Numbered from the stretch's first letter, positions 7,016-39,306 are shown. The stretch is 64,000 nt of DNA from Chlorobiota bacterium (GCA_041596515.1 JBFHIJ010000006.1:11845-75844), one strand, 5' to 3'. Numbers and translations are program-made. The notes: a model not told the origin generated them from the letters alone.

Positions 7016-7444
7016 TTATCTAAACATTTCTTTTATCATTCCCCAAGTTCTTTGAACTGAGTTGATATGCTGAGTAACAGGCACGGGGTCGCTATAAGAA
7101 ATAGAGCCATCTTCGCCTACGAATTTCAGTCTATAAAAATAATCTTTACCTTTCAAAATTTGGTCGTCAGCATCGCCTTTAGACATAAATGCTTTATCAT
7201 CTACGTAAGTATATTGGGAGTTATCTCCCTGAGCCTCTTCTGTAGATACATAGATAAAGCTGCTTTGGTCGCTCTTTCTCTCTATCTGATATTCTTTGAG
7301 GTTTACCTCAGTAGAAGAAGTCCATTCGACGATAATATCAGTATCGCTTGTTTTAGCAGATAATGACCGAATAGTAGTCCCTGCAGCATAAATTGCTACC
7401 GATGCCATCACTATAAAAAGTGCTATTATAAGTCTATTTTTCAT
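7016..7444 (-). CDS. small secreted protein, possibly a beta-sandwich/FN3-like fold
   Basis: Signal peptide MKNRLIIALFIVMASVAIYA. No catalytic motifs. Confidence 0.4.
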   Translation of the reverse strand: MKNRLIIALFIVMASVAIYAAGTTIRSLSAKTSDTDIIVEWTSSTEVNLKEYQIERKSDQSSFIYVSTEEAQGDNSQYTYVDDKAFMSKGDADDQILKGKDYFYRLKFVGEDGSISYSDPVPVTQHINSVQRTWGMIKEMFR

Positions 7445-7633: not shown

Positions 7634-9595
7634 ATGAAGCAATATTATCCATATAGTTTAATACTCTTTATTGGACTAATAGGTTCAATTATATCATGCA
7701 ATGCTGACTATAATGTAGACAATCATGATGCCAAAAAGTTACACACACAGAAAGGGAAAGATATGAAATACGCAGGGACTGTCAACGCACCGGACTTTCA
7801 GGATGGACTGGAATGGCTAAATACCGAAAAACCATTATCTATTAAAGAGCTGAAAGGCAAAGTTATTCTGCTTGATTTTTGGACTTACTGTTGTATAAAT
7901 TGCATACATGTGATGCCAGATCTGAAAAAGCTGGAAGAAGAGTTTGCTGATGAGCTGGTAGTCATTGGTGTGCATTCTGCTAAATTTGAAAATGAAAAGC
8001 TAACCGAAAACATAAGAGAAGCAATAATAAGGTATGAAATTGCGCATCCGGTAGTAAATGATAAAGATTTTAAAGTATGGAGGGAGTATGGGGCACGCTC
8101 ATGGCCTTCATTTGCTCTCATAAATCCAAGAGGTAAACTGCTGGGGATGACTTCCGGCGAAGGGATTTACTTAAAAATAAGAGATGTGATAGCTGATGTA
8201 ATAGCTGAGTTTGATGAGATTGGGGAGATAGATCGCTCTCCCCTTAATCTTGCATTGGAAAAAAACTCGAGACCTAAGTCACTATTAAGTTATCCCGGGA
8301 AAATCAGTTATGACCAAACTCATAAAATCTTATGGATTAGTGATTCAAATCACAACCGTATTTTAGGTATAGATGAAGATGGAAATCCTGAATATGTGAT
8401 TGGAACAGGTATAAGCGGAATGAAAGATGGTGCTTTTGATCAGGCTCAGTTTTTCAGACCGCAGGGCGTTTTCTATTCATCTGCCCAAAATGCAGTTTAT
8501 GTAGCGGACACTGAAAATCACTCAATACGCAAAATAGATCTCCAAGATGGAACAGTTACTACACTTGCCGGAACCGGTGAGCAGGGAGCTTGGGGTGAGC
8601 AGGGGGGTGATGCACTGACCGAGGAACTCAATAGTCCTTGGGACTTAATGCAGGTAGGTGATAGCCTGATTGTAGCCATGGCCGGCCCGCATCAAATATG
8701 GGCAATTGATTTGGAACAATCATTAAGTGGAATATACGCCGGTAACGGGCGTGAAGACATAATAGACGGAACTCGCAGTAACTCTTCGTTTGCTCAGCCG
8801 AGTGGGATAGCTTTCGACGGAAATAATTTCTACATTGCTGATAGTGAAGTTAGCGGCATTAGAAAAATAGATAGCCAATCCGGCAAGGTATCTACACTAG
8901 TAGGGCAAGGGCTATTTGAGTTTGGAGATGTGGACGGAAGCTTCCCTAAATCCAGACTTCAGCATGCTATCGGATGCACTTACCACGATGGATTAATATA
9001 TATAGCAGATACTTACAACCACAAGATTAAAGTGCTGGATCCTAAGACAAAGAAATTAAAATCTCTTATAGGAACAGGGGAGAGAGGATATAAAGATGGT
9101 AGTTTTGAAGATGCAATGCTTAACGAACCAAATGATGTGGAAGTAGTTGGCAATATACTATATATCACTGATACCAATAACGACTTGGTGCGAGTAGCAA
9201 ATCTAAATACTAAAGAAGTGAGCACTTTAAAAATCAATGCCAATAATAAGATGCAACTCAAAGAAAAGCTTAGCGAGGAGAAATTTATCGCAAAAGCAAT
9301 CAGTAACTTTAGAATAAATATTGATTTGCCGGAAAAGCTGAAATTTACAGAGGACGCTCCGGCATTATTCCGTTACTCCTTTGACGGAAGCAATTGGGAA
9401 AGCGCCGCCGAGCTAAGCGATATCAATATCGACCTAAGCGGCAGACCAAAACACCTTTGGTTGGACTACAGCATCTACTACTGCGAAAAAGACAAAGAAG
9501 CCAAATGCTACGTCGCCTTCGACAAAAAGAAACTATTATTAGAATATATAGATAGTGGCAAATCCGGCTATGAGATAGAGTTGATGGGTGAGTAG
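7634..9595 (+). CDS. thioredoxin-like domain fused to an NHL-repeat beta-propeller protein
   Basis: N-terminal redoxin-like region with WTYCCINC (CxxC). This is followed by repeated NHL-like blades (…YVADTENHSIRKID…, …YIADSEVSGIRKID…, …YIADTYNHKIKVLD…, …YITDTNNDLVRVAN…). Confidence 0.7.
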   Translation: MKQYYPYSLILFIGLIGSIISCNADYNVDNHDAKKLHTQKGKDMKYAGTVNAPDFQDGLEWLNTEKPLSIKELKGKVILLDFWTYCCINCIHVMPDLKKLEEEFADELVVIGVHSAKFENEKLTENIREAIIRYEIAHPVVNDKDFKVWREYGARSWPSFALINPRGKLLGMTSGEGIYLKIRDVIADVIAEFDEIGEIDRSPLNLALEKNSRPKSLLSYPGKISYDQTHKILWISDSNHNRILGIDEDGNPEYVIGTGISGMKDGAFDQAQFFRPQGVFYSSAQNAVYVADTENHSIRKIDLQDGTVTTLAGTGEQGAWGEQGGDALTEELNSPWDLMQVGDSLIVAMAGPHQIWAIDLEQSLSGIYAGNGREDIIDGTRSNSSFAQPSGIAFDGNNFYIADSEVSGIRKIDSQSGKVSTLVGQGLFEFGDVDGSFPKSRLQHAIGCTYHDGLIYIADTYNHKIKVLDPKTKKLKSLIGTGERGYKDGSFEDAMLNEPNDVEVVGNILYITDTNNDLVRVANLNTKEVSTLKINANNKMQLKEKLSEEKFIAKAISNFRINIDLPEKLKFTEDAPALFRYSFDGSNWESAAELSDINIDLSGRPKHLWLDYSIYYCEKDKEAKCYVAFDKKKLLLEYIDSGKSGYEIELMGE

Positions 9596-9735
9596 GTTGC
9601 TACAATGTAAGGAAAGTGTTGTTTTTATGTAGCCTCATATTTTATCAACATGCCGTACGAAATTTAAACTATTAATTAAATTATTTATAGTTATATTTGC
9701 TTATGTAGTTAAGCGTTTAGTTTATAAACGAGTTA
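9557..9735 (+). repeat. direct repeat copy 1: last 12 codons of the NHL gene plus ~140 bp downstream
   Basis: The 39-bp core GGCAAATCCGGCTATGAGATAGAGTTGATGGGTGAGTAG recurs at 11078 with one mismatch. The following ~140 bp recur there with roughly 70% identity. Confidence 0.7.
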
Positions 9736-9774
9736 TGTGTTTAATTAAGACGAACCCAAAGGACAAGATAAAAG

Positions 9775-10650
9775 ATGGAAATGCCAAAATTTCATGAGAC
9801 TTTCATTCCAATTTTAAAAGTGTTAGAAAATGGAGAAACTCTCCAAGCAAGAGAATTGTATAAAAAAGTAATCGCTCAATTCTATACGGAACTTTCAAAA
9901 GAGCAATTGGAAGAAAAAACAAAAAGTGGAGACCTTTTAATAATTAACAGGATCGCTTGGGGGAAGTCTTACTTAAAAAAGGGAGGATATATTGAATTCC
10001 CAAAAAGAGGATTTGTAAGAATAACAGAAAAAGGAAAAACTCAAACAACATCAGACTTGACTTTAAAACAAGTTGAAAGCTCTGATAATTACCTTGAATT
10101 TTACAATGAGGAAAACTCCCAAAAAGAATCGACTCCTTCAATAATTAAGAACGCATCACCACAAGACCTAATTGACGAAGGTTTTAATCAAATTGACATT
10201 CAGGTAAAAGATGAATTATTAGAAAAACTAAAGGAAATTGATCCATTCTATTTTGAGAAAGTTATTCTTATTCTTCTCAAAAAAATGGGATACGGTGATT
10301 TTGTTGAAACAGCAAAAACTGGAGATGGTGGAATAGATGGGATAATTAATGAAGATAAACTTGGATTGGATAAAATATACATTCAAGCTAAGCGATATGG
10401 AGAAAATAAAGTACGTGAAAAGGACATTCGTAATTTTATCGGAGCAATGAGTGGAGATACTCAAAAAGGTGTTTTCGTTACCACATCATCCTTTGATACA
10501 GGAGCAATTAAAAAAGCTCACGATGCTCATCATACAATTATCTTAATTGATGGTTTAAAATTGGTAGATCTTTTGCATCAATATAATGTTGGTATTCAGG
10601 TTAAAGCAGTTTATGAAGTAAAAGAGTTGGATAATGATTTCTTCGAGTAA
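9775..10650 (+). CDS. mrr: Mrr-family type IV (modification-dependent) restriction endonuclease
   Basis: N-terminal Mrr_N winged-helix region. C-terminal Mrr_cat PD-(D/E)xK core (GDGGIDGII...LDKIYIQAKRY). Confidence 0.75.
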   Translation: MEMPKFHETFIPILKVLENGETLQARELYKKVIAQFYTELSKEQLEEKTKSGDLLIINRIAWGKSYLKKGGYIEFPKRGFVRITEKGKTQTTSDLTLKQVESSDNYLEFYNEENSQKESTPSIIKNASPQDLIDEGFNQIDIQVKDELLEKLKEIDPFYFEKVILILLKKMGYGDFVETAKTGDGGIDGIINEDKLGLDKIYIQAKRYGENKVREKDIRNFIGAMSGDTQKGVFVTTSSFDTGAIKKAHDAHHTIILIDGLKLVDLLHQYNVGIQVKAVYEVKELDNDFFE

Positions 10651-10860
10651 AATAATTAATATGTAGATTTATGGCTAATCGATTGGAAATTTTAAAAAAA
10701 TACAGAAGAAATTTTCAAAGATGGAGATGCTAAATATGTTTATTGAGGTGTAGTATATTCGAATGAAAACAATTTCCGAGAAAACAAATCATCAAGTGAG
10801 TATTTTGTAAATGAGTTTAATATTAATATTAATATTATTGACAATATAGCTCTTTGTTGT

Positions 10861-11094
10861 ATGTTATGTGATGCAAGTAAAGGCTCGAAACTACTTGAGG
10901 ACTGGCTTGAAAGTGACTCCTGTAAGAAAAAAGAAATACTGGTTGATTCTGTTGCTGACGTTGTGAAAATGGTATTAAGAATCCATCGAAACGTTATAGT
11001 TAATATTCTGATTGACAATGAAGTTTTGTCCGACAAGATTAGAGCTGAAATTCAATTTGATAGCAATTTGGAAACCAGGCAAATCCGGCTATGA
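10861..11094 (+). CDS. hypothetical small ORF inside the Mrr cassette, possibly a gene fragment
   Basis: 77-aa ORF with no recognisable domain. It runs into repeat copy 2 in a different frame from the NHL gene tail. Confidence 0.2.
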   Translation: MLCDASKGSKLLEDWLESDSCKKKEILVDSVADVVKMVLRIHRNVIVNILIDNEVLSDKIRAEIQFDSNLETRQIRL

Positions 11095-11275
11095 GATAGA
11101 GTTGATGGGAGAGTAGAGAGGTTTTTTATGTGAGGTAAGTTTTGTTTTAAGATAGCCTAATATCCAATTTATTGATATGTTATACGTATTTTAAACGAGT
11201 AATGAAAATATATTTTGCTATATTTGCTTGTATAGTTAATCGTTTTATACCTTAAAACTGTTGTGCAAAAGTCGA
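11078..11275 (+). repeat. direct repeat copy 2 (displaced or duplicated NHL gene 3' end)
   Basis: Core is near-identical to 9557-9595 and would encode ...GKSGYEIELMGE* in frame. The flanking ~160 bp align to 9596-9735 with many substitutions. Confidence 0.7.
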
Positions 11276-11288
11276 TACTGGAGGTATT

Positions 11289-12122
11289 ATGGACAAGTTT
11301 TTTAATACTTTACATACTACATTTTCTTATGAAGCATTTTTAAATACAATAATTAACTTTCTTCCTAATTTAATTGCTGCATTATTCATACTATTTGCTT
11401 TTCATATTTTATGGAAGCTACTAAATAAATTTTTAAATGTGTTATTTAAAAAAATATCAATAGATGGAACATTTCAAAACTTTATTAACAATATTACCAA
11501 AAATATTCTTTTATTAATTGGAATAATTACTGCACTATCTCAAGTAGGTATTAATACTGGTTCTATGTTAGCAAGTTTAGGTGTCGCAGGTTTAACTATT
11601 GGTTTCGCTGCAAAGGATGCATTATCGAATATTATTTCCGGGTTATTTATTTTTTGGGACAGACCTTTCGTAATTGGTGATTTAATTGAAATAAATAATC
11701 AATATGGTAAAGTTGAAGAAATCACGATGAGGTCAACAAGACTTATTACAGTTGATGGTAAAATGTTATCAATACCTAATTCACAAATTTTAAATTCCAT
11801 GGTTGCCTCATATACAAATTTCCCTAATTTGCGAATTGATATCGATTTCACTGTTTCTTCAATTACAAATCTTAACAAGTTACGTATGTTTTTATTTGAA
11901 TTAGTTCAAGATAATGAGATTTATCTCTCTAAGCCTGAACCTGAAATTGTATTAAACAAAATTAATGACTATAATATCGAATTATTGTTTAGAGTATGGA
12001 TAAAAAATGAGAAAGAGCATGTAAAAATCAGATTTAAATTAAGGGAAAAAATACTCGATAAATTGATTGAAAATAAAATTGAAATGCCGTATGAAACTAT
12101 AAATATTGTAATGGATAAATAA
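11289..12122 (+). CDS. mscS: small-conductance mechanosensitive channel (MscS family)
   Basis: TM helices followed by the conserved MscS beta-domain (GDLIEINNQYGKVEEITMRSTRLITVDGKMLSIPNSQI). Confidence 0.75.
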   Translation: MDKFFNTLHTTFSYEAFLNTIINFLPNLIAALFILFAFHILWKLLNKFLNVLFKKISIDGTFQNFINNITKNILLLIGIITALSQVGINTGSMLASLGVAGLTIGFAAKDALSNIISGLFIFWDRPFVIGDLIEINNQYGKVEEITMRSTRLITVDGKMLSIPNSQILNSMVASYTNFPNLRIDIDFTVSSITNLNKLRMFLFELVQDNEIYLSKPEPEIVLNKINDYNIELLFRVWIKNEKEHVKIRFKLREKILDKLIENKIEMPYETINIVMDK

Positions 12123-12546
12123 TCGTAGCAGTTTAGACTTCCGCAGAACACAGCATAGCTGCTGCACTTTCTGTAGTTGCTTGGCCTTTAACACATTTGC
12201 TTCCGAGGCACTGCGGCAAAGGTCGGCTATGCTTGAACGTTACATGTAAGCTTGAAAATCAAGAAATGATAAAAATCATAAGTATCATAAGTATTTTATT
12301 CACATTTGGATTCCATGGTTTAAAAATTATGTATTACTTGTATCATCTCCAATGCAATGAAATTGCAAAATTGCATTGCATCAGATATTAAAATACAAAA
12401 TTGATAGTTAATATAGTGAAGTAATGTGAGTGTCATTTTGATATTACTAAGCAACTCCAGCACCTCACCAATAAAGAATTACTACATTCCAATTTAAAAT
12501 AAAAAATTATATATTCGGCTAATTGCTTGAATGTGGCAATAATTCT

Positions 12547-12586
12547 GCAAAAAAAAAGACGCAATTACAATGCGTCTTTTTCAAAA
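12547..12586. terminator. bidirectional intrinsic terminator
   Basis: Stem aagacgca/tgcgtctt flanked by A9 on one side and T5 on the other. It lies just 3' of the minus-strand gene ending at 12612. Confidence 0.55.
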
Positions 12587-12611
12587 TCTATAGTTTTACT
12601 CGAATCTATCT

Positions 12612-13412
12612 TTAAAACGGTGGATACCAGATAACACCAAATCTTGGAATAGAGAAGAATTCTGATACCTCTGCAGGGCGTGAATCACCCTCAATTTCTA
12701 CAGACATCGCTTCACTGCCAAACTTAAAGTCTACGCGCCATTCGGCTGATAAGGTAAGCATGCCATAAGTATCCATATCAAAATTGAAGAACATCCCCAG
12801 ACCAACATTCATGCCCAACTGATTATTTGTTTTAGGAACCCTTGCATCCAGCGCTTCATCATAAATAGAGATATTGCTGGAAAAGTAAGTCATACCAATA
12901 GTAGCAAAAAAGTTGATACGATTTTTAGGATTAGGTATCCAGTGAGAAGATAAATTATATACTGTATATGTAAATGGATCTATGTTTACATTTTCTTCTG
13001 ATACTTTAGTATTTTTAGAGTAGGTATAAGCACCCTCTAAAAGCAGATAGTCAGTAACGCCATACATAATTCTTCCACCATAAGCAACGATACCGTCGTA
13101 AGAAACTGACTTATCTAATGTGCCACCTTCTTTTTGAGATATTAGTTGTGACTGCACAACGGTATTAGTACCAATGACAGGACCAAAACCAATATATCTG
13201 ACAAAAGGGTTCATCATAATTTCGCCGGTTTCTTCATCTATATATTCACCGTCTTGGAGTTCTACTTCCTCTCCTTCATATTCCTCTTCGTAGTATTCGC
13301 CTTCTTCGTAAGCCTCTTCAGTTTCCTGGGCATATAAAGAGAAGGAACTAATAATAAATACAAAGGCAAGTATAAAAAGATTGAAAAGATGTTTTGCATT
13401 ATTTGTAGTCAT
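12612..13412 (-). CDS. outer-membrane beta-barrel protein with acidic E/Y-rich N-terminal region; candidate internal start within the TatD ORF
   Basis: Internal Met (MTTNNAKHLFNLFILAFVFIISSFSLYAQ) gives a signal peptide. The C-terminus ends ...FGVIWYPPF with a terminal Phe, typical of OM beta-barrels. It is in frame with TatD, with no stop codon between them. Confidence 0.5.
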   Translation of the reverse strand: MTTNNAKHLFNLFILAFVFIISSFSLYAQETEEAYEEGEYYEEEYEGEEVELQDGEYIDEETGEIMMNPFVRYIGFGPVIGTNTVVQSQLISQKEGGTLDKSVSYDGIVAYGGRIMYGVTDYLLLEGAYTYSKNTKVSEENVNIDPFTYTVYNLSSHWIPNPKNRINFFATIGMTYFSSNISIYDEALDARVPKTNNQLGMNVGLGMFFNFDMDTYGMLTLSAEWRVDFKFGSEAMSVEIEGDSRPAEVSEFFSIPRFGVIWYPPF

Positions 13413-14132
13413 AGATATTACCTCTTCTGTAGAAATTGATTTTATTTCTGCAATTTTTTCTGCCACATATTTCACTCTTTCAGGTTCATTCCTCTTACCT
13501 CTGAAAGGTACAGGAGTCATATATGGAGAATCTGTTTCTATCATAATTTTGTCTAAGGGGGCGGCTCTTACGACCTCGCCCAAAGTAGATTTCTTAAACG
13601 TAATATTTCCCGTAAAAGAGACCATGAAGCCCAAATCTAATGCTTGTTTTAATACATTTACATCAGACGAAAAGCAATGCAGTACGCCTTTTAAAGTGCC
13701 GTCTTGCATATCTTTTAACGTGCTAATCAAGTCTTCGTCAGACTCTCGGTTATGGATAATTACAGGCAGATTTAACTCTTTTGCCAACGCTAATTGATTT
13801 TTAAAAGCACTGATCTGCACATCTTTTGGAGTAAAGTCATAATAGTAGTCAAGCCCAATTTCGCCAATAGCTTTTACATTGTCATCATTTGCTATCTTTC
13901 TAATATTATCCGCAACTACTTTATTATACTCAGCTGCATTATGCGGATGAACTCCCAGACCGCAGTATATATTTTTGTTCTTTTGCGCTAATAATATTAC
14001 TCTTTCAAAATCTTTTGGTTCAATTCCGGGAATAATTATAGCTTCCAAACCACTGTCCATAGCTCTGCGTATAACTTCCTCTCTATCCTGATCGAATGCT
14101 TCAGTATCTAAGTGTGCGTGAGTGTCTATCAT
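13374..14132 (-). CDS. tatD: TatD-family metal-dependent hydrolase/DNase domain; the ORF has no own stop and reads through into the downstream barrel
   Basis: MIDTHAHLD start, then GEIGLDYY, HNRES, ETDSPY and C-terminal ...NAKHLFNL, which together are the full TatD motif set. The 3' end coordinate is approximate; it marks where TatD homology ends. Confidence 0.75.
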
Positions 14133-18925: not shown

Positions 18926-19417
18926 ATGAAAAAGTTTTTCGCAATCGCTCTCGCTTTCGCAATGTTCGCTTCTGTTAATATGTTCGCTGATGATGTAACT
19001 GGTCCTGGTATTGAATTAATGCCTGCAACAGCAGATGCAACAATCAATTTAACAGTATTACAACAAATAGTAGTAACTACTGAGTCTGTTCTTGATTTTG
19101 CTGTAGTTGAAGGTACAGATTCTTACAATCCTGAAACTGGTAGTTTAGAAGCACTTTCTTATAATGTAATATCTACAAATGGCTATGCATTGACTTATGG
19201 TTTAGATTTTGTGATAGCTACACAACCAACAGGTTCTACAGATGCTACAGCTCCTACTATCTCTTTTGCTGACGCTACAGATGGTGAAGTAGCAGTTGGT
19301 AGTAACGATGGTGATATTGATTTAGACTTTACAGTGAATGGAATTAGTGCAATGGATTCTGAAGCTGGCGATTATTCATATACTTACACTCTAAGTGTGT
19401 ACTATACAAACTTCTAA
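18926..19417 (+). CDS. pilin-like secreted protein, SCPU/Csu-type (archaic chaperone-usher subunit), gene 1 and candidate major subunit
   Basis: Signal peptide. C-terminus GDYSYTYTLSVYYTNF resembles CsuA/B ...GDYKDTLLVTVNF. It is followed by a 10-bp-stem hairpin. Confidence 0.55.
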   Translation: MKKFFAIALAFAMFASVNMFADDVTGPGIELMPATADATINLTVLQQIVVTTESVLDFAVVEGTDSYNPETGSLEALSYNVISTNGYALTYGLDFVIATQPTGSTDATAPTISFADATDGEVAVGSNDGDIDLDFTVNGISAMDSEAGDYSYTYTLSVYYTNF

Positions 19418-19429
19418 GAAGATTATCTC

Positions 19430-19460
19430 ATATAGTAGGGACTAAGTATGTCCCTACTAT
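19430..19460 (+). terminator. hairpin between pilin genes 1 and 2 (attenuator or partial terminator)
   Basis: Perfect stem ATAGTAGGGA/TCCCTACTAT with a 9-nt loop. No strong T-run follows. Confidence 0.35.
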
Positions 19461-19483
19461 ATAAATTAAATAGGAGAGTGTAT

Positions 19484-20068
19484 ATGTATTTATTCAAAAA
19501 AATCTTTGCAATATTGATTGCAATAATAATAATCTCTCCGGTATATGTTTATAGTGCTGAAACGCAACCAGACCCAGAACCAACTAATCAAGCAACTGTT
19601 AACATCGAAATATTAGAGCAGCTTACTTGCATAATCGATCCAATTAGTAATGCTGGTGTTGGAAGTTCGGACTTGATATTGGTGCAAGGCACTAGTAGGA
19701 CTGAAGATGAATTTGAAGGTGGATATATTGAACCAACTTATACATTTAAAGCTTGGGGTAAACGAGACCAACCTATTACAATTAACTTCAATGCTACAAA
19801 TTGTGCAAGTTCTGGTGAGATGAAATATTGCGACCCGACTAATCAGGTTAAAGCAACTGTTTCATGGCACTCAGCATCACGACCAAATGAGTTCAACAAA
19901 TTGAACACAAATGTTTGGGAAACGGGATTATATGAAACTCAAAGTGATCCCCATGTGGGAATTGAACAAGCTTATATGATTATTACAAAAATAGAAGCTG
20001 CGGAAGGTACTCCTCCAGGGAATTATACTATCCCATTCACAGTAAGTGTTTATTATACCGGATTTTAA
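19484..20068 (+). CDS. pilin-like secreted protein, SCPU/Csu-type, gene 2
   Basis: Start moved to MYLFKKIFAILIAIIIISPVYVYSA (signal peptide; AGGAGA SD 10 nt upstream). C-terminus PGNYTIPFTVSVYYTGF. Confidence 0.55.
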   Translation: MYLFKKIFAILIAIIIISPVYVYSAETQPDPEPTNQATVNIEILEQLTCIIDPISNAGVGSSDLILVQGTSRTEDEFEGGYIEPTYTFKAWGKRDQPITINFNATNCASSGEMKYCDPTNQVKATVSWHSASRPNEFNKLNTNVWETGLYETQSDPHVGIEQAYMIITKIEAAEGTPPGNYTIPFTVSVYYTGF

Positions 20069-20079
20069 TAGAAAAAATA

Positions 20080-20117
20080 TAAAATCCCTGACTTTGGCTA
20101 AGACAGGGATTTTTTAA
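20080..20117 (+). terminator. hairpin/terminator between pilin genes 2 and 3
   Basis: Stem AAATCCCTG/CAGGGATTT (9 bp) followed by TTTTTAAC. Confidence 0.4.
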
Positions 20118-20132
20118 CAAGGAATCAAAAAA

Positions 20133-20594
20133 GTGAAATACTTTTATATAATCATATTTGTTTTATTAATGCAGGTAGCGGCAGATGCGCAAGTAAATGT
20201 GAATTCCTATTGTCATAATAACAATCAACCCATTCCACTTCAGGTTACTGTTTCTAATGATATAGATTTGGGTGCTGTGGTAGCTGGTTCGACTTCGACA
20301 TTTGAGTCGCCATTTAACGAAAGTATATTTACAATATCAGGTCAGCAGTTAAAATGGATATGTACAGATATCGATACAGAAACAACAAAGCAAGGGATTG
20401 TTCTTGATTTGAGCTTCAAATATAGCCACACAGGCCAATGTTTATGGATATGTTATTTTAACGGTCTTCACAATTTACTAACTGGCAATATCTACGTAAA
20501 GATGAATGTAAACTCGATACAAGTGTCACCGAGCACTCCTCCGGGAGAGTACACTTTTACTCAGTTCGTTCAAGTGGAATACTGTACTTTTTAG
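20133..20594 (+). CDS. pilin-like secreted protein, SCPU/Csu-type, gene 3 (GTG start)
   Basis: Signal peptide MKYFYIIIFVLLMQVAADA. C-terminus PGEYTFTQFVQVEYCTF has the same terminal pattern as genes 1 and 2. Confidence 0.5.
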   Translation: MKYFYIIIFVLLMQVAADAQVNVNSYCHNNNQPIPLQVTVSNDIDLGAVVAGSTSTFESPFNESIFTISGQQLKWICTDIDTETTKQGIVLDLSFKYSHTGQCLWICYFNGLHNLLTGNIYVKMNVNSIQVSPSTPPGEYTFTQFVQVEYCTF

Positions 20595-20703
20595 ACTATA
20601 GACTTTACTGGCAAAAAGTAAAGACATCGCTATAAGTTATTGTATTGCAAAAAGTATGTAGAGATTGAAATTCTAAATTTTACTTATAATAGAGGTAGCA
20701 ATA

Positions 20704-21546
20704 ATGAAAAAGCACATAATAATAATCTTATCTTTTCTATTCTTTTCTTTGACACTTAAAGCGCAAGTGGCGGTAATGCCACCCGCTGTATTCATAGATA
20801 AACACTCACGATCTGCAGAAATGTTTGTAGCTAATTCGAGCAATGAAGTACAAGAAGTAACTGTAGGACTTGAATATGGCTATCCTGCACCTGACTCCTT
20901 AGGCAATATAGCTATGAAATATAACGACTCACTCACTGCAGAGCAATACTCAATAGCGAATCGTCTGGCAATTTTTCCTAAAAAGTTTGAACTAAAACCC
21001 GGAGAAAGGCAAACAGTTCGATTCTTACTAAGAGGTTCCGGCAACTTGGAAGATGGCTTCTATTGGTCTCGAATAAGAACTACAGGCATGAAAACCGCTA
21101 AACAAATAGATTCCTCCAACGCCGAAGGCGATGTAAAAGTAGGGATTAACCTTGCATTCTCTATGGTTACTTTTATTGGGTATAAAAAAGGAGAAACAAA
21201 CACTAATTTAGATATAGTTTATCTTGCAGTAGGTACTGATAGTGCGAACACTAATCTTCTTTTAAATTATAAACGTACGGGTAACTCTCCACTTCTAAGC
21301 AAAACAAAGATAGAAATATTTGATGAAATCGGTAATCTTGTAGCTGAAAAAGAAGAGCCATGCCCATATTATTTCGAGGGTAAGCGTAAGTTTAACTTTC
21401 CCAAAACAGATTTGCCAGCGGGCTCGTACAAAGCCAAATTTTCCTTCAATAACGATTTAGATGATATACCAAAAGACTATCGAGCATCATTTACCCCTTT
21501 TGATAAAACTTTTGATATAAAAGTTAAAGCAGAAAGAGGAAACTAA
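20704..21546 (+). CDS. periplasmic pilus chaperone (PapD/CsuC-like)
   Basis: Signal peptide, then the N-domain motif FELKPGERQTVRFLL, which fits the F.L.PG..Q.VR pattern of fimbrial chaperones. 280 aa. Confidence 0.6.
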   Translation: MKKHIIIILSFLFFSLTLKAQVAVMPPAVFIDKHSRSAEMFVANSSNEVQEVTVGLEYGYPAPDSLGNIAMKYNDSLTAEQYSIANRLAIFPKKFELKPGERQTVRFLLRGSGNLEDGFYWSRIRTTGMKTAKQIDSSNAEGDVKVGINLAFSMVTFIGYKKGETNTNLDIVYLAVGTDSANTNLLLNYKRTGNSPLLSKTKIEIFDEIGNLVAEKEEPCPYYFEGKRKFNFPKTDLPAGSYKAKFSFNNDLDDIPKDYRASFTPFDKTFDIKVKAERGN

Positions 21547-21672
21547 TTTATAAGTGTTTCGGTAAAAAATAGAGATAGCATTTACTTTCAAAAGCCATGG
21601 ATTGACTGTGCTTTAGTATATGCTTATGTATTAGTGAAGTAAACAATATATCATCTAAACGGAAATTATTTA

Positions 21673-24324
21673 GTGCGTGCAACTCTGTACATAAAAATTG
21701 CACTTATGTGCTTTTTGCTATCTCTGATGCCTTCGGTGGTTTCTTGCTCGGAAGCTGTCGAGGGTGTCTTTTCTTTCAAATATGTAAATTTTGAAAAAGA
21801 CATGATAGTGTATATACAAGAAGATGCAGTGTACTTCCCGATTTTCGAGATATTCGATTTCCTCCGTATTTATAAAGAATATGACCCATCTTCCAAAATA
21901 CTATCAGGCTATGTAAGCTCAGAGGAGAGAAGTTATTCTATAGATTTTACCACGTATGAAGCTACTAACCTGCAAGGCGATTCTTATCAAATTGAGAAAG
22001 ACAGCATCATCATAAATGAATTAGATATGTACATAACTGCGTCAGAATTTAGTAAAATACTGGACGTGGAAATCTTTGTCAGCAAGCTTGGATTAATCGG
22101 TCTTCTCAAATCTACGTATGAAATGCCGCTTTTAGAAGAATACAACCTAAGATATAACAAGTTAAAACTAAAAGGATTGGCAAGCGAAGAAGTTTTTGCT
22201 CCTTTGATGTACGGGCGAGACTTCAAGATAATAGATGGAGGTGTGGTAAACTACGGAATCAATTCGAATACAAACAAGCAGTCAACTGTAATCGGGTTAA
22301 ACACTAACCTCGGGATGCAATTATTAGGTGGGGAATTGGCAATAAACAATAGCTATATTTATAATACCTACAGCCAAACAAAATTTCAAAATATTAGATA
22401 CAACTGGCAGTTTCCGTTCAATAAAAATAAATATCTTAATTCTCTAAGAGTTGGTTATGTAACAGGAAATTCTTTAAACTTTGGTTCCTCCGGTTCTAAT
22501 ATCAGGAATAAATATTCAAACCTACAGGGAATATCTATTTCAAATAGAGAAATGGATAATCGAAAGGTATTTGATGAATTTCAGTTTGAAGATATTACTG
22601 AACCATACAGTTTGATAGAAATATATGTAAATTCTCGCTTAGTCAAGCAATTCAGATGCGAGGAAGACGGACGCTACCGATTTGCTTTGCCACTGACTTA
22701 TGGTAATTCAATTATCGAAACAAAAATTTATAGTCCTTCGGGGCAAAGAGATTATAAAAAGGAAACAGTCAATATCCCGGGCATGATGCTTCAGCCCGGC
22801 CAAGTTAGGTATACGCTAACGAGTGGTAAAGATATAAATTATGAAGAATATATTGTAGATGGCATAGTAGAGACTGGGGTTACAGATTGGCTGAGTACTT
22901 CTGTTAGTAATGTTTATAATATAGATAATAAAGTAAATTTACTTGTCAGCAATAGTACTGTTAGGCTAATGGGCGGAGCATACAGCAGCTTTGCATATTC
23001 TCATGATAACTTTTACAGAACTATGATAGCTTATGCTAATTCGCAGATAGGCCACTACGAGTTGTCGTATATGAAATATAAGAGTGATTCGGAAGTTGAT
23101 AAATATGGCAAAGAAGCTGAATATCAATTAAATGTCAACCTGCCACGAATACCCTATTTACCTTTTAGTTTGCGACTTCGAGCAGATGTAGACCAATATA
23201 GTAACAGACTGACCGGAAACTATTCTGTTAACACTTACGGTAATATTGGTTCTATTAGAATAAATAACTCCTACCGATTAGCTCAAACTATAATGAAAGA
23301 TCTGGACAATAGCTACAATCACTATATTAATTGTGGAGTATCTTACTATTTGCAACTTCCATTTCTTAAAGATTCAAGAGCATTAGGCAGAACAAGTATT
23401 TCAACAAACTTCAATTATGATTTGAATATTGGGCAGTTTACTAACTTAAGCGCCTCTATCTCTCAAAGTCTATTCCGAATATTATCTATAAGTGCAAACT
23501 ATAGAAATAATTTAGTAAGTAATTACTCAAGTTTCAATATTAATTTGAGTCTCAATATGGATTTCGCAAGGTTTAGCAGCAGAGCTGAGCTAAGCGAGTC
23601 AAATCAAAGCATTAATAATAACTTGGATGGTTCTTTAGGGTTTGATACTGATAGATTTAACGTCTTTCCTAGTAAGCGCCTTAGTTATACCGGCAACTCC
23701 GGACTTGCCACTATCAAATGCTTTATAGATAGCAATGGTAACTTAAGCTATGACGATGGCGAGGAAGTTTTAACCGGAGTGCCTATTAGAGTGCCGCGCG
23801 CATCTGTTCTCGGAGATAGAGACGATGAATATAAAACAGTTTCTAACTTACGTCCGGGCTATCAATATAATGTTATTATTAATAATAGTGGACTCAAAAA
23901 TCCATTACTTCGTCCATTATGGGATGATTTCTCTTTTATAGCAGATCCTAATACTTTTAAATCGATAGATATACCATTTACTGTTACAGGATTAATAGAA
24001 GGTCAGGTGTTTACTCAAGATTCTTCTGGGAACAGAAATGGTAAATCGGGTGTAAAACTGCATATTATCAGTAAAAAAACAGGTAAAGATGTTACAGTAA
24101 ACGTATTCTCTGATGGCAGTTTTTACCATCTCGGACTTTTTCCGGGATATTATGATGTTTATGTAGATAAAACTCAGCTCGGACTTTTGAATATGATAAC
24201 TGATCCTCCAAGTCAGGAAATATACATCGGTTTCTCTGAAGATGGCGATATGAAGTCAGGAATAGATTTCAGGCTTTTACCTAATAAAGATTCGGGTGGT
24301 GTTGTCTCTCCAAGTGCAGATTAG
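21673..24324 (+). CDS. outer-membrane usher (CsuD-like) with C-terminal CarbopepD_reg-like beta-sandwich
   Basis: 883 aa with signal peptide and a long beta-rich, Y/N/S-rich barrel region. C-terminal GQVFTQDSSG...YYDVYVD resembles a carboxypeptidase-regulatory-like domain. Placed in the operon after the chaperone gene. Confidence 0.55.
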   Translation: MRATLYIKIALMCFLLSLMPSVVSCSEAVEGVFSFKYVNFEKDMIVYIQEDAVYFPIFEIFDFLRIYKEYDPSSKILSGYVSSEERSYSIDFTTYEATNLQGDSYQIEKDSIIINELDMYITASEFSKILDVEIFVSKLGLIGLLKSTYEMPLLEEYNLRYNKLKLKGLASEEVFAPLMYGRDFKIIDGGVVNYGINSNTNKQSTVIGLNTNLGMQLLGGELAINNSYIYNTYSQTKFQNIRYNWQFPFNKNKYLNSLRVGYVTGNSLNFGSSGSNIRNKYSNLQGISISNREMDNRKVFDEFQFEDITEPYSLIEIYVNSRLVKQFRCEEDGRYRFALPLTYGNSIIETKIYSPSGQRDYKKETVNIPGMMLQPGQVRYTLTSGKDINYEEYIVDGIVETGVTDWLSTSVSNVYNIDNKVNLLVSNSTVRLMGGAYSSFAYSHDNFYRTMIAYANSQIGHYELSYMKYKSDSEVDKYGKEAEYQLNVNLPRIPYLPFSLRLRADVDQYSNRLTGNYSVNTYGNIGSIRINNSYRLAQTIMKDLDNSYNHYINCGVSYYLQLPFLKDSRALGRTSISTNFNYDLNIGQFTNLSASISQSLFRILSISANYRNNLVSNYSSFNINLSLNMDFARFSSRAELSESNQSINNNLDGSLGFDTDRFNVFPSKRLSYTGNSGLATIKCFIDSNGNLSYDDGEEVLTGVPIRVPRASVLGDRDDEYKTVSNLRPGYQYNVIINNSGLKNPLLRPLWDDFSFIADPNTFKSIDIPFTVTGLIEGQVFTQDSSGNRNGKSGVKLHIISKKTGKDVTVNVFSDGSFYHLGLFPGYYDVYVDKTQLGLLNMITDPPSQEIYIGFSEDGDMKSGIDFRLLPNKDSGGVVSPSAD

Positions 24325-24378
24325 TGGGTTAATTTCAATTGTTGTATATTGCGGATACAATCTAAAAGGAGAATTAGT

Positions 24379-24633
24379 ATGAATTTCAAAGAACTATTTA
24401 AAATTGCATCACTGGCTGTACAGGACTCCTACGAAAAAGACATATTTGATATAAGGTTAGAGCAAGTAGAAAAAGATGGTGATAACTACTTAGTTGTGGT
24501 CTCGTTTGTGATAGAAGATAAAATGAAAGAAGAAAGTTTAATTGCTTTTACCGGGAAATATGAGCGTATATACAAGCAAATCAGAATAGACAAAGATAAA
24601 AGTGTTGTTGGATTGTATATGTTTAAATTCTGA
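24379..24633 (+). CDS. small protein of unknown fold, candidate antitoxin partner of the downstream PIN gene
   Basis: Strong SD AAAGGAG 7 nt before this ATG; the ORF-track start at 24349 lacks one. Its stop overlaps the next start (TGATG). Confidence 0.4.
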   Translation: MNFKELFKIASLAVQDSYEKDIFDIRLEQVEKDGDNYLVVVSFVIEDKMKEESLIAFTGKYERIYKQIRIDKDKSVVGLYMFKF

Positions 24634-25094
24634 TGGTAGTAATTGATACTAATGCTTTGGTAGTTTATGTCTTGGGGCTTATGAATCCAGCATTGATAGA
24701 GACACATAAGCGTACTTCTATTTATGATAAAGCGGATTTTGAATACTTACTAAAACTCACTTACAAAAAAGAAATATTTACTTTGCCAGATATTCTAAGT
24801 GAAGTAGATAATTTACTAAATAAATTTAAAGGGAAATACAGAAGAATATATGCCAAGAAATTTTTAGATTTTGTAAAATATTCAAGTGAAAGATATCTGG
24901 AAAGCTTAATAATTGAATCAAATTTTGAATTATTTCAAGAAATTGGACTGACAGACTTAAAGGTTTTAGAACTATCAGAACAGGCTGAATATTTAATTAC
25001 CGCGGATTCTAAATTGGCTGATTATGCAAGCTGTTATGGAATAAAGGTTATAGATTTAGTTAAGAATAGAAATGTTCGCCTACTCTCCACTTAA
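24633..25094 (+). CDS. PIN-domain protein (VapC-like putative toxin)
   Basis: N-terminal VVIDTNALV and later LITADSKLADYA fit the PIN acidic-residue pattern. Translationally coupled to the upstream small ORF. Confidence 0.5.
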   Translation: MVVIDTNALVVYVLGLMNPALIETHKRTSIYDKADFEYLLKLTYKKEIFTLPDILSEVDNLLNKFKGKYRRIYAKKFLDFVKYSSERYLESLIIESNFELFQEIGLTDLKVLELSEQAEYLITADSKLADYASCYGIKVIDLVKNRNVRLLST

Positions 25095-36673: not shown

Positions 36674-36697
36674 AGCATCCTTCTCCAAACATACTAA

Positions 36698-36736
36698 CCT
36701 TCACCCAAACGCTTGCGCTTCTGCCAAGATTATCGG
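36698..36736 (-). repeat. degenerate copy C of the pbpC 3'-end repeat
   Basis: CCTTCACCCAAACGCTTGCGCTTCTGCCAAGATTATCGG matches copy A across CTTGCGCTTCTGCCAAGATTATCGG. On the minus strand it would encode ..DNLGRSASVWVKV.. with no stop. Confidence 0.6.
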
Positions 36737-36744
36737 AATTATTT

Positions 36745-37401: not shown

Positions 37402-37470
37402 TATTAATCCAGATTATAAATATATTTTAAGCTAATATACAATTTTACATTGTAATATTGAATTAATTCC

Positions 37471-37536
37471 CTAAAACACTGTCAGTTTCACCCATCCACT
37501 TGAACTTCTGTCAAGATTATCGGTGCAGGTGATTTT
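37471..37536 (-). repeat. copy B of the pbpC 3'-end repeat
   Basis: On the minus strand it encodes KITCTDNLDRSSSGWVKLTVF*, against the pbpC tail KITCTDNLGRSASIWVKVTVF*. Confidence 0.7.
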
Positions 37537-37676
37537 ATTATTGTAATTATCATACAATTATATTTTTCTATCTTGCAGTATATTCTTATATTATAGTTAT
37601 AATTGTTTTAACTTTTTAAAAATACTAATCTACTTTAATTAATAAGTATATTTAGAAATTTGAGAGATTTACTCTT

Positions 37677-39227: not shown

Positions 39228-39236
39228 AAAAATCTC

Positions 39237-39306
39237 CTAAAACACAGTCACCTTCACCCATATACTTGCGCTTCTGCCAAGATTATCGGTGCAGGTGATT
39301 TTTTTT
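39237..39306 (-). repeat. copy A of the repeat, which is the functional 3' end of pbpC
   Basis: Encodes the last 22 codons of pbpC plus its stop. It shares the core AAGATTATCGGTGCAGGTGATTTT with copy B. Confidence 0.7.

What the first reader, a model, noticed from the sequence alone, without database searches (positions are those of the whole stretch)
9557..11275. Mrr type IV restriction gene inserted as a cassette between duplicated copies of the NHL-gene 3' end
Seen directly: the last 12 codons plus stop of the thioredoxin/NHL gene (GGCAAATCCGGC...GAGTAG, 9557-9595) recur at 11078-11116 with a single mismatch. The ~140-160 bp that follow each copy are also homologous but far more diverged (~70%). 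The 1.5-kb interval between them holds an Mrr-family modification-dependent restriction endonuclease and a 77-aa ORF, preceded by a (TTAATA)3 tract and a TTGACA box.

The near-perfect conservation of the 39-bp coding core against the diverged arms is the pattern expected of a recombination crossover (att core) site.

Inference: this is a defence-gene cassette acquired by 3'-end-targeting integration, the same architecture as the pbpC locus. Without the insertion the NHL gene would be followed directly by mscS.
Basis: partly seen in the sequence, partly recalled or inferred. Interest (0 to 1): 0.7.

Follow-up and report, generated by a model that had tools for sequence, protein, structure and literature searches.

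The report
Gene-exchange hotspot with duplicated gene tail
The repeat is real, but it marks a gene-swapping hotspot behind a housekeeping gene, built by ordinary recombination, and the restriction gene inside it is a widely travelling integron-type cassette that got stranded there.

Summary
The last 39 nt of the thioredoxin/NHL gene (9557-9595) recur at 11078-11116 (38/39), followed by ~150 nt at ~70% identity.

The closest relative (95% identical flanks) lacks the whole 2979-bp block 9597-12575, mscS included, so mscS is not the original neighbour.

A second relative has two perfect 48-nt tails around different genes. Identity to it jumps across each tail, so the tail is a crossover point.

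No recombinase lies in the block or the 64-kb window. The junctions on either side of the gene remnant upstream of tail 2 are microhomology joins (GAATCCA, GGCAA). At the pbpC locus the tail copies group by genome (gene conversion), which can explain a conserved core with diverged arms without an att site.

The "77-aa ORF" is debris: a dead HNH gene fused to 37 codons of another gene.

The mobile unit is mrr plus a 109-aa HNH gene (window 9732-10991). It is 80-99% identical in nucleotide sequence across nine contexts from at least three Bacteroidota classes and carries an attC-like hairpin site in some of them. The tail repeats themselves are not attC-like.

Verdict: a recombination-driven hotspot holding a stranded integron-type defence cassette. 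Moderately interesting.

The parts
7634..9595 (+). Thioredoxin-like/NHL-repeat gene (653 aa), the conserved left flank of the hotspot
   Evidence: Pfam NHL, Thioredoxin_8 and AhpC-TSA. Orthologues in Ca. Kapaibacterium MAGs at 95, 79, 73 and 72%.
9339..9595 (+). Recombination tract: the last ~260 nt of the NHL gene
   Evidence: Window-L003 identity is 55-77% over the first ~1700 alignment columns and 90-98% over columns 1701-1900. L002-L003 shows the same jump, while L001 stays at 52-71%.
9557..9595 (+). Tail copy 1: the functional last 12 codons plus stop of the NHL gene
   Evidence: 38/39 identical to 11078-11116. 38/39 to both L003 tails.
9596..9731 (+). Spacer I, non-coding, AT-rich (26% GC). 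It contains the conserved block TATATTTG at 9692-9699.
   Evidence: About 70% identical to spacer I' and 77% to the L003 spacer. No Rfam hit and no conserved fold. The promoter reading (Bacteroidota -7 motif TAnnTTTG) is inference from my own knowledge.
9732..10991 (+). Stranded integron-type cassette mrr + psi-hnh. Its left end is GTT(AT)GTGTTTAATTAAG. Its right end and its attC are deleted.
   Evidence: 85-89% nucleotide identity to Flavobacterium nitratireducens and metagenomic Bacteroidota, 79% to Draconibacterium orientale. The edges fall at about -40 to -50 and +1231 to +1233 relative to the mrr ATG in nine contexts. Intact copies carry an attC-like site.
9775..10650 (+). mrr, type IV modification-dependent restriction endonuclease, intact (291 aa, 3 residues shorter than relatives)
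   Evidence: Pfam Mrr_N and Mrr_cat. PADLOC mREase_IV E=1.3e-57. 97.4% nucleotide identity to the L003 copy. 85-96% amino-acid identity across Bacteroidota.
10671..10991 (+). psi-hnh: dead copy of the 109-aa HNH-like partner gene, including the (TTAATA)3 tract
   Evidence: tblastn with intact 109-aa proteins gives E=4e-32 with two in-frame stops, SWEH changed to SSEY and CNASKG to CDASKG. Intact homologues hit HNH_5 at E=0.007 (below the Pfam cutoff) and PADLOC PtuB at 8e-6.
10979..11077 (+). 3' remnant (last ~33 codons) of a 399-aa gene, joined to psi-hnh on GAATCCA microhomology (10979-10985)
   Evidence: 99/99 identical to L003:11710-11808. Both parental sequences share GAATCCA at the join.
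11078..11116 (+). Tail copy 2: non-functional copy of the NHL 3' end. Its first 5 nt (GGCAA) are microhomology with the native end of the 399-aa gene.
   Evidence: Same left junction as L003 tail B, with 60 nt identical upstream. Family members end ...ETRQL..., so R and Q are native to the 399-aa gene.
11117..11288 (+). Spacer I' and mscS leader. It has TATATTTG at 11219-11226 and an uninterrupted GTTGTGC at 11260-11266, the position where copy 1 is interrupted by the cassette.
   Evidence: Alignments. Cassette left ends read GTTGTGCTTAATTA in other genomes.
11289..12122 (+). mscS-family channel gene, accessory in this lineage
   Evidence: Pfam MS_channel domains. Absent from L002. Nearest homologues 74% and 68%, outside Kapaibacteria. 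25.5% GC.
12123..12575 (+). Non-coding right end of the variable block. 12452-12528 is a remnant of the region upstream of a T9SS-sorted gene in L003.
   Evidence: 77% identity to L003:13039-13114. Collinearity with L002 resumes at 12576.
12612..14132 (-). TatD-DNase/OMP beta-barrel gene, the conserved right flank (convergent)
   Evidence: Pfam TatD_DNase E=5e-88. 95% identical to L002, where it directly follows the NHL gene.
39231..39305 (-). pbpC 3' tail, functional copy A (second locus with the same architecture)
   Evidence: pbpC Pfam Transgly, Transpeptidase and BiPBP_C. Repeat families D2 and D3.
37465..37539 (-). pbpC tail copy B. A 516-aa gene (37677-39227, +) lies between copies A and B.
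   Evidence: 85% identical to copy A. The same arrangement occurs in L001 (13783-13850 and 12014-12079). B copies resemble their own genome's A copy (58/66) more than each other (52/66).
36682..36736 (-). pbpC tail copy C (shorter). A 218-aa lipoprotein gene (36745-37401, -) lies between copies B and C.

Best explanation
The space between the convergent core genes NHL (7634-9595) and tatD (12612-14132) is a gene-exchange hotspot in Candidatus Kapaibacterium. Accessory blocks are swapped between lineages by homologous recombination anchored in the 3' end of the NHL gene. They are joined on the other side either in a pre-existing tail copy or by illegitimate, microhomology-mediated joins.

The second NHL tail is the scar of such an event. 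Incoming DNA brought its own complete NHL end, and the join fell 39 nt upstream of the resident stop codon, leaving the resident tail behind. Once two tails exist they serve as short portable homology (39-48 nt). They are kept alike by gene conversion with the selected, functional copy, and they act as crossover points that re-sort blocks.

Separately, the restriction gene arrived as a two-gene integron-type cassette (mrr + a 109-aa HNH gene + attC-like site) that circulates widely in Bacteroidota. It landed at a GTT in the spacer downstream of a tail. It has since lost its HNH gene to mutation and its attC to a microhomology deletion, so it is now fixed in place. mrr is probably expressed from the spacer.

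Shown: absence of the block in the nearest relative, the recombination tract, the mosaic identities, the microhomology at both junctions flanking the gene remnant upstream of tail 2, grouping of pbpC tail copies by genome, and the cassette edges and attC-like hairpin in other genomes.

Inferred: the order of events, the one-sided-homology origin of the first duplication, and promoter activity of the spacer.
For: 1. Hotspot. All five Kapaibacteria genomes differ immediately after the NHL stop. Window and L002 are collinear at 95% up to 9596 and from 12576 onward, with 2979 bp in the window against 119 bp in L002 between those points.
2. Homologous recombination at the flank. Window-L003 identity jumps from 55-77% to 90-98% over the last ~260 nt of the NHL gene.
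3. Mosaic with breaks at the tails, window vs L003: NHL 3' end 94%, tail 38/39, spacer 77%, mrr 97.4%, psi-hnh 75.5%, 399-gene remnant 99/99, tail 37/39, spacer I' 69%. Zero differences in 99 nt of a non-functional remnant, next to ~24% divergence in other unconstrained parts, means at least two exchange events of different ages.
4. Illegitimate joins. The psi-hnh::remnant junction lies on GAATCCA. The remnant::tail junction lies on GGCAA, since 399-family proteins natively end ...ETRQL....
5. Gene conversion. pbpC tail B copies share lineage-specific substitutions with their own A copy (58/66), against 52/66 between the two B copies. The duplication and the gene between the tails predate the window-L001 split. 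L003's two NHL tails are 48/48 identical and share GCT where both window tails have GG(T/A).
6. No recombinase anywhere in 64 kb.
7. Cassette. mrr+hnh shows 80-99% nucleotide identity, with the same edges, in nine different contexts. The edge 10-mer occurs 16 times in 1.22 Mb against 2.3 expected, and 15 of those are at cassette edges. In L105, GCACAAC...GTTGTGC folds into an imperfect hairpin of -21.4 kcal/mol between two consecutive cassettes.
8. The framework is established: many hotspots lack mobile-element genes and show excess homologous recombination in flanking core genes (PMC5635113).
Against: - Only two independent genomes (the window and L003; L092 is the same organism) carry duplicated NHL tails, so the history cannot be reconstructed uniquely.
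- Recombination on only 39-48 nt of identity is inefficient for RecA-type systems, and nothing is known about transformation or recombination in Kapaibacteria.
- Two loci in one genome with duplicated 3' gene ends, and three copies at pbpC, is also the classic footprint of integrase-mediated accretion.
- A trans-acting recombinase elsewhere in the genome cannot be excluded.
- The first ~30-35 nt of the tails are invariant in every copy, which could also mark a protein-binding site.
Confidence: 0.55

Rival explanations
1. The tails are att sites. The blocks are decayed integrative elements (CIME-like) that a tyrosine or serine integrase once inserted into the 3' ends of the NHL and pbpC genes and accreted in tandem. 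The integrase genes have since been lost or act in trans from elsewhere in the genome.
For: - Direct repeats made of the target gene's 3' end flank the inserts at two loci, with three copies at pbpC.
- L003 has perfect 48-nt repeats around different cargo.
- The relative L002 has a single tail.
- Identity discontinuities put crossovers in the tail.
- Tandem accretion at a gene's 3' end, with elements that retain attL/attR but no integrase, is documented (PMC5704250).
Against: - No recombinase in any block or in 64 kb.
- The blocks are only 0.7-1.9 kb and hold one or two ordinary genes.
- The left edge of the second NHL tail is a single inherited junction lying on microhomology with the truncated 399-aa gene.
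- pbpC copies B and C start at different positions of the gene (69 vs 53 coding nt).
- The pbpC duplication predates the divergence of the window and L001 lineages.
- The unit that really moves between genomes (mrr-hnh) has other ends.
Confidence: 0.22
2. An active, integron-like platform. The unit [gene tail + promoter spacer + GTTGTGC] is a landing pad (attI-like) at which an integron-type integrase encoded elsewhere inserts attC-bearing cassettes such as mrr-hnh. The duplication of the unit would be part of how the array grows.
For: - Both repeat copies end in the same core-like heptamer position. Copy 2 has an uninterrupted GTTGTGC 22 nt before the mscS ATG, and copy 1 is interrupted at that point by a cassette whose left end in other genomes is GTTGTGCTTAATTA.
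- The spacer carries a conserved promoter-like block upstream of the insertion point.
- Cassettes can insert at non-attC/attI genomic sites (10.1101/2025.06.18.660453).
Against: - The tail+spacer is not attC-like. Inner-arm pairing of -4 to -5 kcal/mol is reached by 18-48% of shuffles, against -14.6/-17.3 for the L105 control. A stringent scan finds no attC-like site in the window or in any Kapaibacteria locus.
- The three spacers show no covariation.
- mscS is not a cassette elsewhere: it sits in a tight operon context in Calditrichaeota.
- No intI in the window.
- Integron insertion does not duplicate the upstream platform.
Confidence: 0.08
3. Assembly artefact. The true chromosome reads NHL-tail-I'-mscS, and the 1521-bp segment belongs to another strain or molecule and was threaded in at the shared 32-mer.
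For: The k-mer contigs L089 (= window 9559-11107) and L090 (starting at 11080) break at the tails, so the short-read graph alone cannot tell the two paths apart.
Against: - L003/L092 show the same kind of integrated arrangement, with a 48-nt repeat, in Mb-scale contigs.
- The two tails differ at position 33 and in what follows, so reads longer than ~50 nt resolve them.
- A 1.5-kb circle without replication genes is not a plausible replicon.
- The remnant::tail junction is shared with L003.
Confidence: 0.04

Closest known systems
[quoted passage not shown] 2017, PMC5635113); also the core defence hotspots of Pseudomonas aeruginosa (PMC10250203, seen only as title and abstract in the search listing)
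   Same: Variable accessory and defence content between two conserved core genes. No integrase or transposase. A recombination tract in the flanking core gene. Rapid turnover leaving gene remnants.
   Different: Here the 3' end of the flanking gene itself is duplicated inside the hotspot and reused as a crossover point, at two loci in the same genome. The passages of that paper that I read do not mention such duplications.
CIMEs and tandem accretion of integrative elements at the 3' end of a gene (ICESt1/CIME at fda in Streptococcus thermophilus; reviewed in PMC5704250)
   Same: Arrays of blocks separated by direct repeats that consist of the target gene's 3' end. Blocks without their own integrase. 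A single copy in empty-site relatives.
   Different: No integrase or trace of one. Blocks are 0.7-1.9 kb rather than several kb of element backbone. Junctions lie on microhomology. Repeat extents differ between copies.
Integron gene cassettes carrying phage-defence genes (BRiCs, bioRxiv 10.1101/2024.07.02.601719) and attC clusters lacking an integrase (CALIN; 10.1101/2025.06.18.660453)
   Same: mrr+hnh is a compact unit with constant ends in many unrelated contexts. In L105 and L098 it is followed by a ~130-nt imperfect palindrome bounded by ...AAC and GTT... cores. L105 has two such units in a row. Homologues without an attC outside integrons are described for BRiCs.
   Different: No integron integrase was seen within 6 kb in any context. 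The cores deviate at one position from RYYYAAC/GTTRRRY. The window copy has lost its attC and is not in an attC array. The taxa are Bacteroidota and Kapaibacteria rather than the well-studied Proteobacteria.
Homology-facilitated illegitimate recombination in transformable bacteria (recalled from my own knowledge of work on Acinetobacter and Streptococcus pneumoniae; not checked in the paper library)
   Same: One homologous anchor (the NHL 3' end) plus a microhomology join (5-7 nt) at the other end.
   Different: Usually described as causing deletions or replacements in the recipient. Here the join fell upstream of the anchor gene's end, producing a duplication. Competence is unknown for this lineage.

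Membership tests
Mrr-type type IV (modification-dependent) restriction endonuclease | N-terminal Mrr_N winged-helix domain plus C-terminal Mrr_cat PD-(D/E)xK nuclease domain, full length | tested here: met
   Pfam Mrr_N 6-89 (E=1.9e-21) and Mrr_cat 152-267 (E=1.3e-33). PADLOC mREase_IV covers 1-291 of 291, E=1.3e-57.
Mrr-type type IV (modification-dependent) restriction endonuclease | Cleaves modified (methylated) DNA and needs no cognate methyltransferase | not testable with these tools
   No methyltransferase gene lies next to it in any of the nine contexts, which is consistent. Activity itself is untested.
Integrase-mediated integrative element / CIME flanked by att repeats | Direct repeats made of the target gene's 3' end flank the insert, and the empty site has one copy | tested here: met
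   38/39 repeat in the window. 48/48 repeat in L003. One tail in L002.
Integrase-mediated integrative element / CIME flanked by att repeats | A tyrosine or serine recombinase gene, or its remnant, in the element or adjacent to it | tested here: not met
   None among the ORFs of at least 100 aa across the 64-kb window or in the L003 block. All six frames of 10651-11116 contain only HNH and 399-gene debris.
Integrase-mediated integrative element / CIME flanked by att repeats | The repeat boundaries are the ends of the unit that moves, reproducibly in independent events | tested here: not met
   The unit shared with other genomes ends at ~9732 and 10991, not at the tails. The tail-2 left junction is one inherited event on microhomology. 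pbpC copies B and C have different extents.
Integrase-mediated integrative element / CIME flanked by att repeats | Precise excision to a circle and a restored single site | not testable with these tools
   Read-level data are needed. The short-read contigs break at the tails.
Integron gene cassette (the mrr-hnh unit) | attC site: inverse core ...AAC and core GTT... bounding a 57-141-nt imperfect palindrome (consensus from my own knowledge; IntegronFinder not available) | tested here: met
   Met in relatives, not in the window copy. L105:7227-7356 is 130 nt, GCACAAC/GTTGTGC are 7/7 complementary, inner arms -14.6/-17.3 kcal/mol (0 of 60 shuffles reach this), MFE -21.4. L098 is similar. In the window copy the attC is deleted.
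Integron gene cassette (the mrr-hnh unit) | Same unit with the same ends in unrelated genomic contexts | tested here: met
   Nine contexts with edges at -40 to -50 and +1231 to +1233, at 80-99% nucleotide identity.
Integron gene cassette (the mrr-hnh unit) | [quoted passage not shown] | tested here: inconclusive
   L105 has two consecutive attC-like sites. No integrase Pfam hit within 6 kb in any context. The window has no attC-like site at all.
attC or attI-type site (the tail + spacer repeat itself) | Imperfect palindrome with paired cores | tested here: not met
   The best candidate arms are -4.2 to -4.9 kcal/mol, reached by 18-48% of shuffles. The alifold covariation term is +0.79. No Rfam hit.
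Horizontal-transfer hotspot driven by recombination at flanking core genes | Different gene content between the same core genes in related genomes, plus recombination signal in a flanking core gene, without mobility genes | tested here: met
   for the absence of mobility genes. The right flank (tatD) is shared only with L002; the other relatives are rearranged.

The most novel reading that the evidence does not exclude
Kapaibacteria might use the 3' tails of conserved genes, together with a promoter-bearing spacer ending in GTTGTGC, as reusable landing pads. A recombinase encoded elsewhere would then insert, excise and reorder small gene blocks, including integron-type cassettes. That would be a gene-tail-based, integron-like exchange system operating at several chromosomal loci.
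Probability: 0.08. Interest if true: 0.75.

Novelty: new member of a known kind. Interest (0 to 1): 0.4.

Why it matters
It gives a worked example, in a barely studied phylum-level lineage, of how a defence gene reaches a chromosome in two steps. An integron-type cassette supplies long-range mobility: the same mrr-hnh unit is found at 80-99% nucleotide identity in at least three Bacteroidota classes and in Kapaibacteria. A recombination hotspot behind a core gene then supplies local exchange.

It also shows that a 'conserved core with diverged arms' flanking an insert is not enough to call an att site. Gene conversion with a selected gene end, together with microhomology joins, gives the same picture.

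If the tails turned out to be recombinase targets, it would be a new cassette-exchange system, but the present evidence leans against that.

Tried and rejected
- **Rfam on 9400-12700.** Nothing found.
- **Sigma-70 promoter/terminator scan.** Chance level, so the TTGACA box was dropped.
- **Consensus folding of the three spacer copies.** No covariation, so a structured RNA or attC-like reading of the spacer was rejected.
- **attC-like scans of the window and Kapaibacteria loci, stringent and relaxed.** Negative for the tails and spacers.
- **'Tail 2 is a conserved mscS leader'.** The nearest mscS homologues (74%, 68%) have unrelated upstream regions. This is a weak test because no close orthologue exists.
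- **'mscS is also an integron-type cassette'.** Rejected, because it sits in a tight operon context in Calditrichaeota.
- **Plasmid or phage vehicle for mrr-hnh.** No phage hit, and only a 71% hit on a Chondrinema plasmid record (338,635 bp).
- **Tail duplication as a general property of NHL-gene homologues.** Only L003 among 69 loci.
- **Terminal inverted repeats as a transposon signature.** Reinterpreted as the two cores of attC-like sites after L105 showed four copies bounding two consecutive genes.

Full report
**1. The observation**

The repeat is real. Positions 9557-9595 (the last 12 codons plus stop of the 653-aa thioredoxin/NHL gene) recur at 11078-11116 with one mismatch. The first 32 nt are an exact run, whereas the longest exact repeat in 30 Markov resamples of the window averaged 16.4 nt with a maximum of 19. 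Homology begins exactly at GGCAAATCC, with nothing upstream. It continues for about 150 nt past the stop at ~70% identity, 76% in gapless blocks. An independent short-read assembly holds the same sequences at 100%, and its contigs break exactly at the two tails.

Between the copies lies an intact Mrr: Mrr_N and Mrr_cat in Pfam, and PADLOC mREase_IV at E=1e-57. MscS follows the second copy.

**2. What the relatives show**

The window belongs to Candidatus Kapaibacterium. Only four other genomes with a close NHL orthologue exist in the collections searched.
- **L002**, the nearest, is collinear with the window at 95% up to 9596 and again from 12576. It has 119 bp where the window has 2979 bp. 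It therefore lacks mrr, the second tail and also mscS. Its NHL gene is followed directly by the convergent tatD-like gene.
- **L003** (L092 is the same organism) has the NHL gene, then genes of 168 aa and 399 aa, then a second tail, then a spacer and a 97.4%-identical mrr. Its two tails are 48/48 identical.
- **L001 and L091** have yet other neighbours.

So the region after the NHL gene is a variable hotspot. The same tail bounds different cargo in different genomes, and mscS is accessory. Its best homologues are 74% and 68% identical and lie outside the lineage, and it is 25.5% GC against 37-40% for the flanking core genes. Among 69 more distant NHL-homologue loci only L003 has a duplicated tail.

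**3. The interval is a mosaic of remnants**

The 77-aa ORF is not a gene. Its first part is the 3' portion of a dead 109-aa HNH gene: two in-frame stops, lost H and N motif residues, tblastn E=4e-32. Its last 37 codons are the end of the L003-type 399-aa gene, 99/99 nt identical.

The two pieces are joined on a shared GAATCCA. The 399-gene remnant runs into tail 2 with the same junction as in L003, 60 nt identical upstream. Family members of the 399-aa protein end ...ETRQL plus 3-18 more residues, whereas this one ends ...ETRQIRL*. The R and Q codons are therefore native, the first five bases of the 'tail' (GGCAA) are shared by both parents, and the gene lost only its last few codons. That is a microhomology join.

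A 77-nt piece at 12452-12528 is a remnant of the region upstream of a T9SS-sorted gene that follows mrr in L003.

**4. Evidence on mechanism**

- *Homologous recombination at the flank.* Window-L003 identity is 55-77% along the first ~1700 alignment columns of the NHL gene and 90-98% over columns 1701-1900. L002-L003 shows the same jump, and L001 does not.
- *Crossovers in the tails.* Compared with L003, identity runs: NHL 3' end 94%, tail 38/39, spacer 77%, mrr 97.4%, psi-hnh 75.5%, remnant 99/99, tail 37/39, spacer I' 69%. The same remnant::tail junction is linked to different spacers in the two genomes, so at least one exchange happened inside or at the end of the tail. The zero divergence of a functionless remnant, next to ~24% in other unconstrained parts, means the events are of different ages.
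- *Gene conversion.* At the pbpC locus the tail is present three times in the window (39231-39305, 37465-37539, 36682-36736), with a 516-aa gene and a 218-aa lipoprotein gene in between. The A/B pair around the orthologous gene also exists in L001. Yet each B copy resembles its own genome's A copy (58/66) more than the other B copy (52/66), sharing lineage-specific substitutions. L003's NHL tails share GCT where the window's share GG(T/A). Homogenisation against the selected functional copy explains 'near-perfect core, diverged arms' without an att site.
- *No recombinase.* No integrase, transposase or other recombinase occurs in the blocks or anywhere in the 64-kb window.

**5. The real mobile unit**

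This Mrr is 85-96% identical in protein sequence in Flavobacterium, Polaribacter, Formosa, Draconibacterium, Saprospiraceae, Algoriphagus and others, while the NHL protein falls to about 50% outside Kapaibacteria.

In all the other contexts examined where the downstream sequence is intact, mrr is followed about 10 nt later by a 109-aa ORF. That ORF hits HNH_5 weakly (E=0.007) and PADLOC PtuB at 8e-6. In L106 the homology ends at about +947 and no hnh gene is called. At the DNA level window ~9732-10991 is 85-89% identical to these genomes and 79% to Draconibacterium. The edges are constant, at about -40 to -50 and +1231 to +1233 relative to the mrr ATG.

The edges are inverted repeats, GTTGTGCTTA...TAAGCACAAC. 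In L105 it occurs four times, bounding mrr-hnh and then a 254-aa gene. The 130 nt between the first GCACAAC and the next GTTGTGC fold into a long imperfect hairpin of -21.4 kcal/mol with the cores paired. L098 has the same design, L100 a degenerate one, and L093, L108 and L109 keep only the first core.

This is the anatomy of an integron attC site and cassette (core consensus from my own knowledge). No integron integrase was seen within 6 kb, so the arrangement is CALIN-like at best. Defence genes in integron cassettes, homologues lacking attC outside integrons, and insertion at non-canonical genomic sites are all described (10.1101/2024.07.02.601719; 10.1101/2025.06.18.660453).

In the window the cassette starts where the homology between spacer I and spacer I' ends. 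Spacer I' has an uninterrupted GTTGTGC at 11260-11266 at the matching position. The cassette's right end and attC were removed by the GAATCCA deletion.

**6. What the tails are not**

The tail+spacer units are not attC-like. Their best arm pairing is -4 to -5 kcal/mol, reached by 18-48% of shuffles, against -14.6/-17.3 for the L105 control. A stringent scan finds none in the window or the Kapaibacteria loci. The units show no covariation and no Rfam match. The sigma-70 promoter scan is at chance. The conserved spacer block TATATTTG fits the Bacteroidota -7 motif, but that is inference. mscS is not a cassette elsewhere. The module is not on catalogued phages, and the only plasmid match is at 71%.

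**7. Best explanation and rivals**

The best-supported reading (confidence 0.55) is a hotspot that diversifies by homologous recombination anchored in the NHL 3' end, together with microhomology joins. The second tail is a scar that then serves as short portable homology and is kept similar by gene conversion. The restriction gene is a stranded integron-type cassette.

Rivals:
- Decayed integrase-mediated elements accreted at gene 3' ends, CIME-like (0.22). This fits the geometry but lacks any recombinase and conflicts with the junction evidence.
- An active tail-based landing-pad system (0.08).
- Assembly artefact (0.04).

The limits are the tiny sample (two independent genomes with duplicated NHL tails) and the lack of read-level data.

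**8. Novelty**

Each component belongs to a known kind: a core-gene-flanked hotspot, an integron-type defence cassette, and a type IV restriction enzyme. Two things are less usual. A core gene's 3' tail is reused as a crossover point at two loci in one genome. And one mrr-hnh cassette is very widely spread and very well conserved across Bacteroidota.

Noticed in passing
window 9732-10991; L093:5962-7233, L098:5951-7350, L100:5989-7350, L105:5958-7356, L106, L108, L109: The mrr + 109-aa HNH pair is one unit at 80-99% nucleotide identity in at least three Bacteroidota classes and in Kapaibacteria, always in a different chromosomal context. In L105 and L098 it is followed by an attC-like ~130-nt hairpin site. 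Many copies sit on 1.1-1.5-kb k-mer contigs, which suggests repeat-bounded or multi-context units in many metagenomes.
   Followed up: partly
window 36682-39305 and L001:12014-13850: The pbpC 3' tail is present three times in the window and twice in L001. The first ~30 nt (AAAATCACCTGCACCGATAATCTTGGCAGA) are identical in three of the four A/B copies, with one mismatch in window B. The B copies group by genome, which indicates gene conversion. The 516/553-aa gene between copies A and B has no Pfam or PADLOC hit.
   Followed up: partly
L001:8001-16058: In L001 the NHL gene and pbpC are convergent neighbours about 3.8 kb apart, with an IS3-family transposase (rve domain), a 209-aa gene and the 553-aa gene between them. 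In the window the two loci are about 30 kb apart. The two tail-duplication loci may once have been a single hotspot.
   Followed up: no
window 62634-63864: Tandem duplication with a 546-nt period. It has exact stretches of 40-125 nt (for example 63119-63243 = 63665-63789), and the 62634-62933 stretch is only 74% identical to its partner copy. It lies where no complete ORF of at least 100 aa is listed, near the window end, and could be a recent internal domain duplication.
   Followed up: no
window 18926-25094: A run of six same-strand ORFs (163, 206, 153, 280, 883 and 153 aa) with no Pfam match at E<=0.001.
   Followed up: no
window 10645-10650 vs L003:12897-12911: The window Mrr is 291 aa rather than 294. 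GAG TAA replaces GAG GAA AAT AAT TAA, a premature stop that removes the last three residues.
   Followed up: no
L100:4700-5950: A 28-nt direct repeat (TTTGGGAAATAAGCGG..., 82% identical) flanks a VbhA-Fic toxin-antitoxin pair immediately upstream of the mrr-hnh unit. This is another small repeat-bounded block in an unrelated genome.
   Followed up: no
L098:5560-5810: An array of 42-nt periodic repeats with nested inverted repeats (AAACA(G/T)TTGTTT cores) lies just upstream of the mrr-hnh unit in Draconibacterium orientale.
   Followed up: no
L093:5504-5521 and 7276-7293: An 18-nt hairpin-forming direct repeat, AGTCCCGACA(C/T)TTCGGGA, flanks the mrr-hnh unit in Flavobacterium nitratireducens with 1772-nt spacing.
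   Followed up: no
L109:2014-3312: A reverse-transcriptase gene (RVT_1, 432 aa) lies 2.7 kb upstream of mrr-hnh, so this context may be a small defence island.
   Followed up: no
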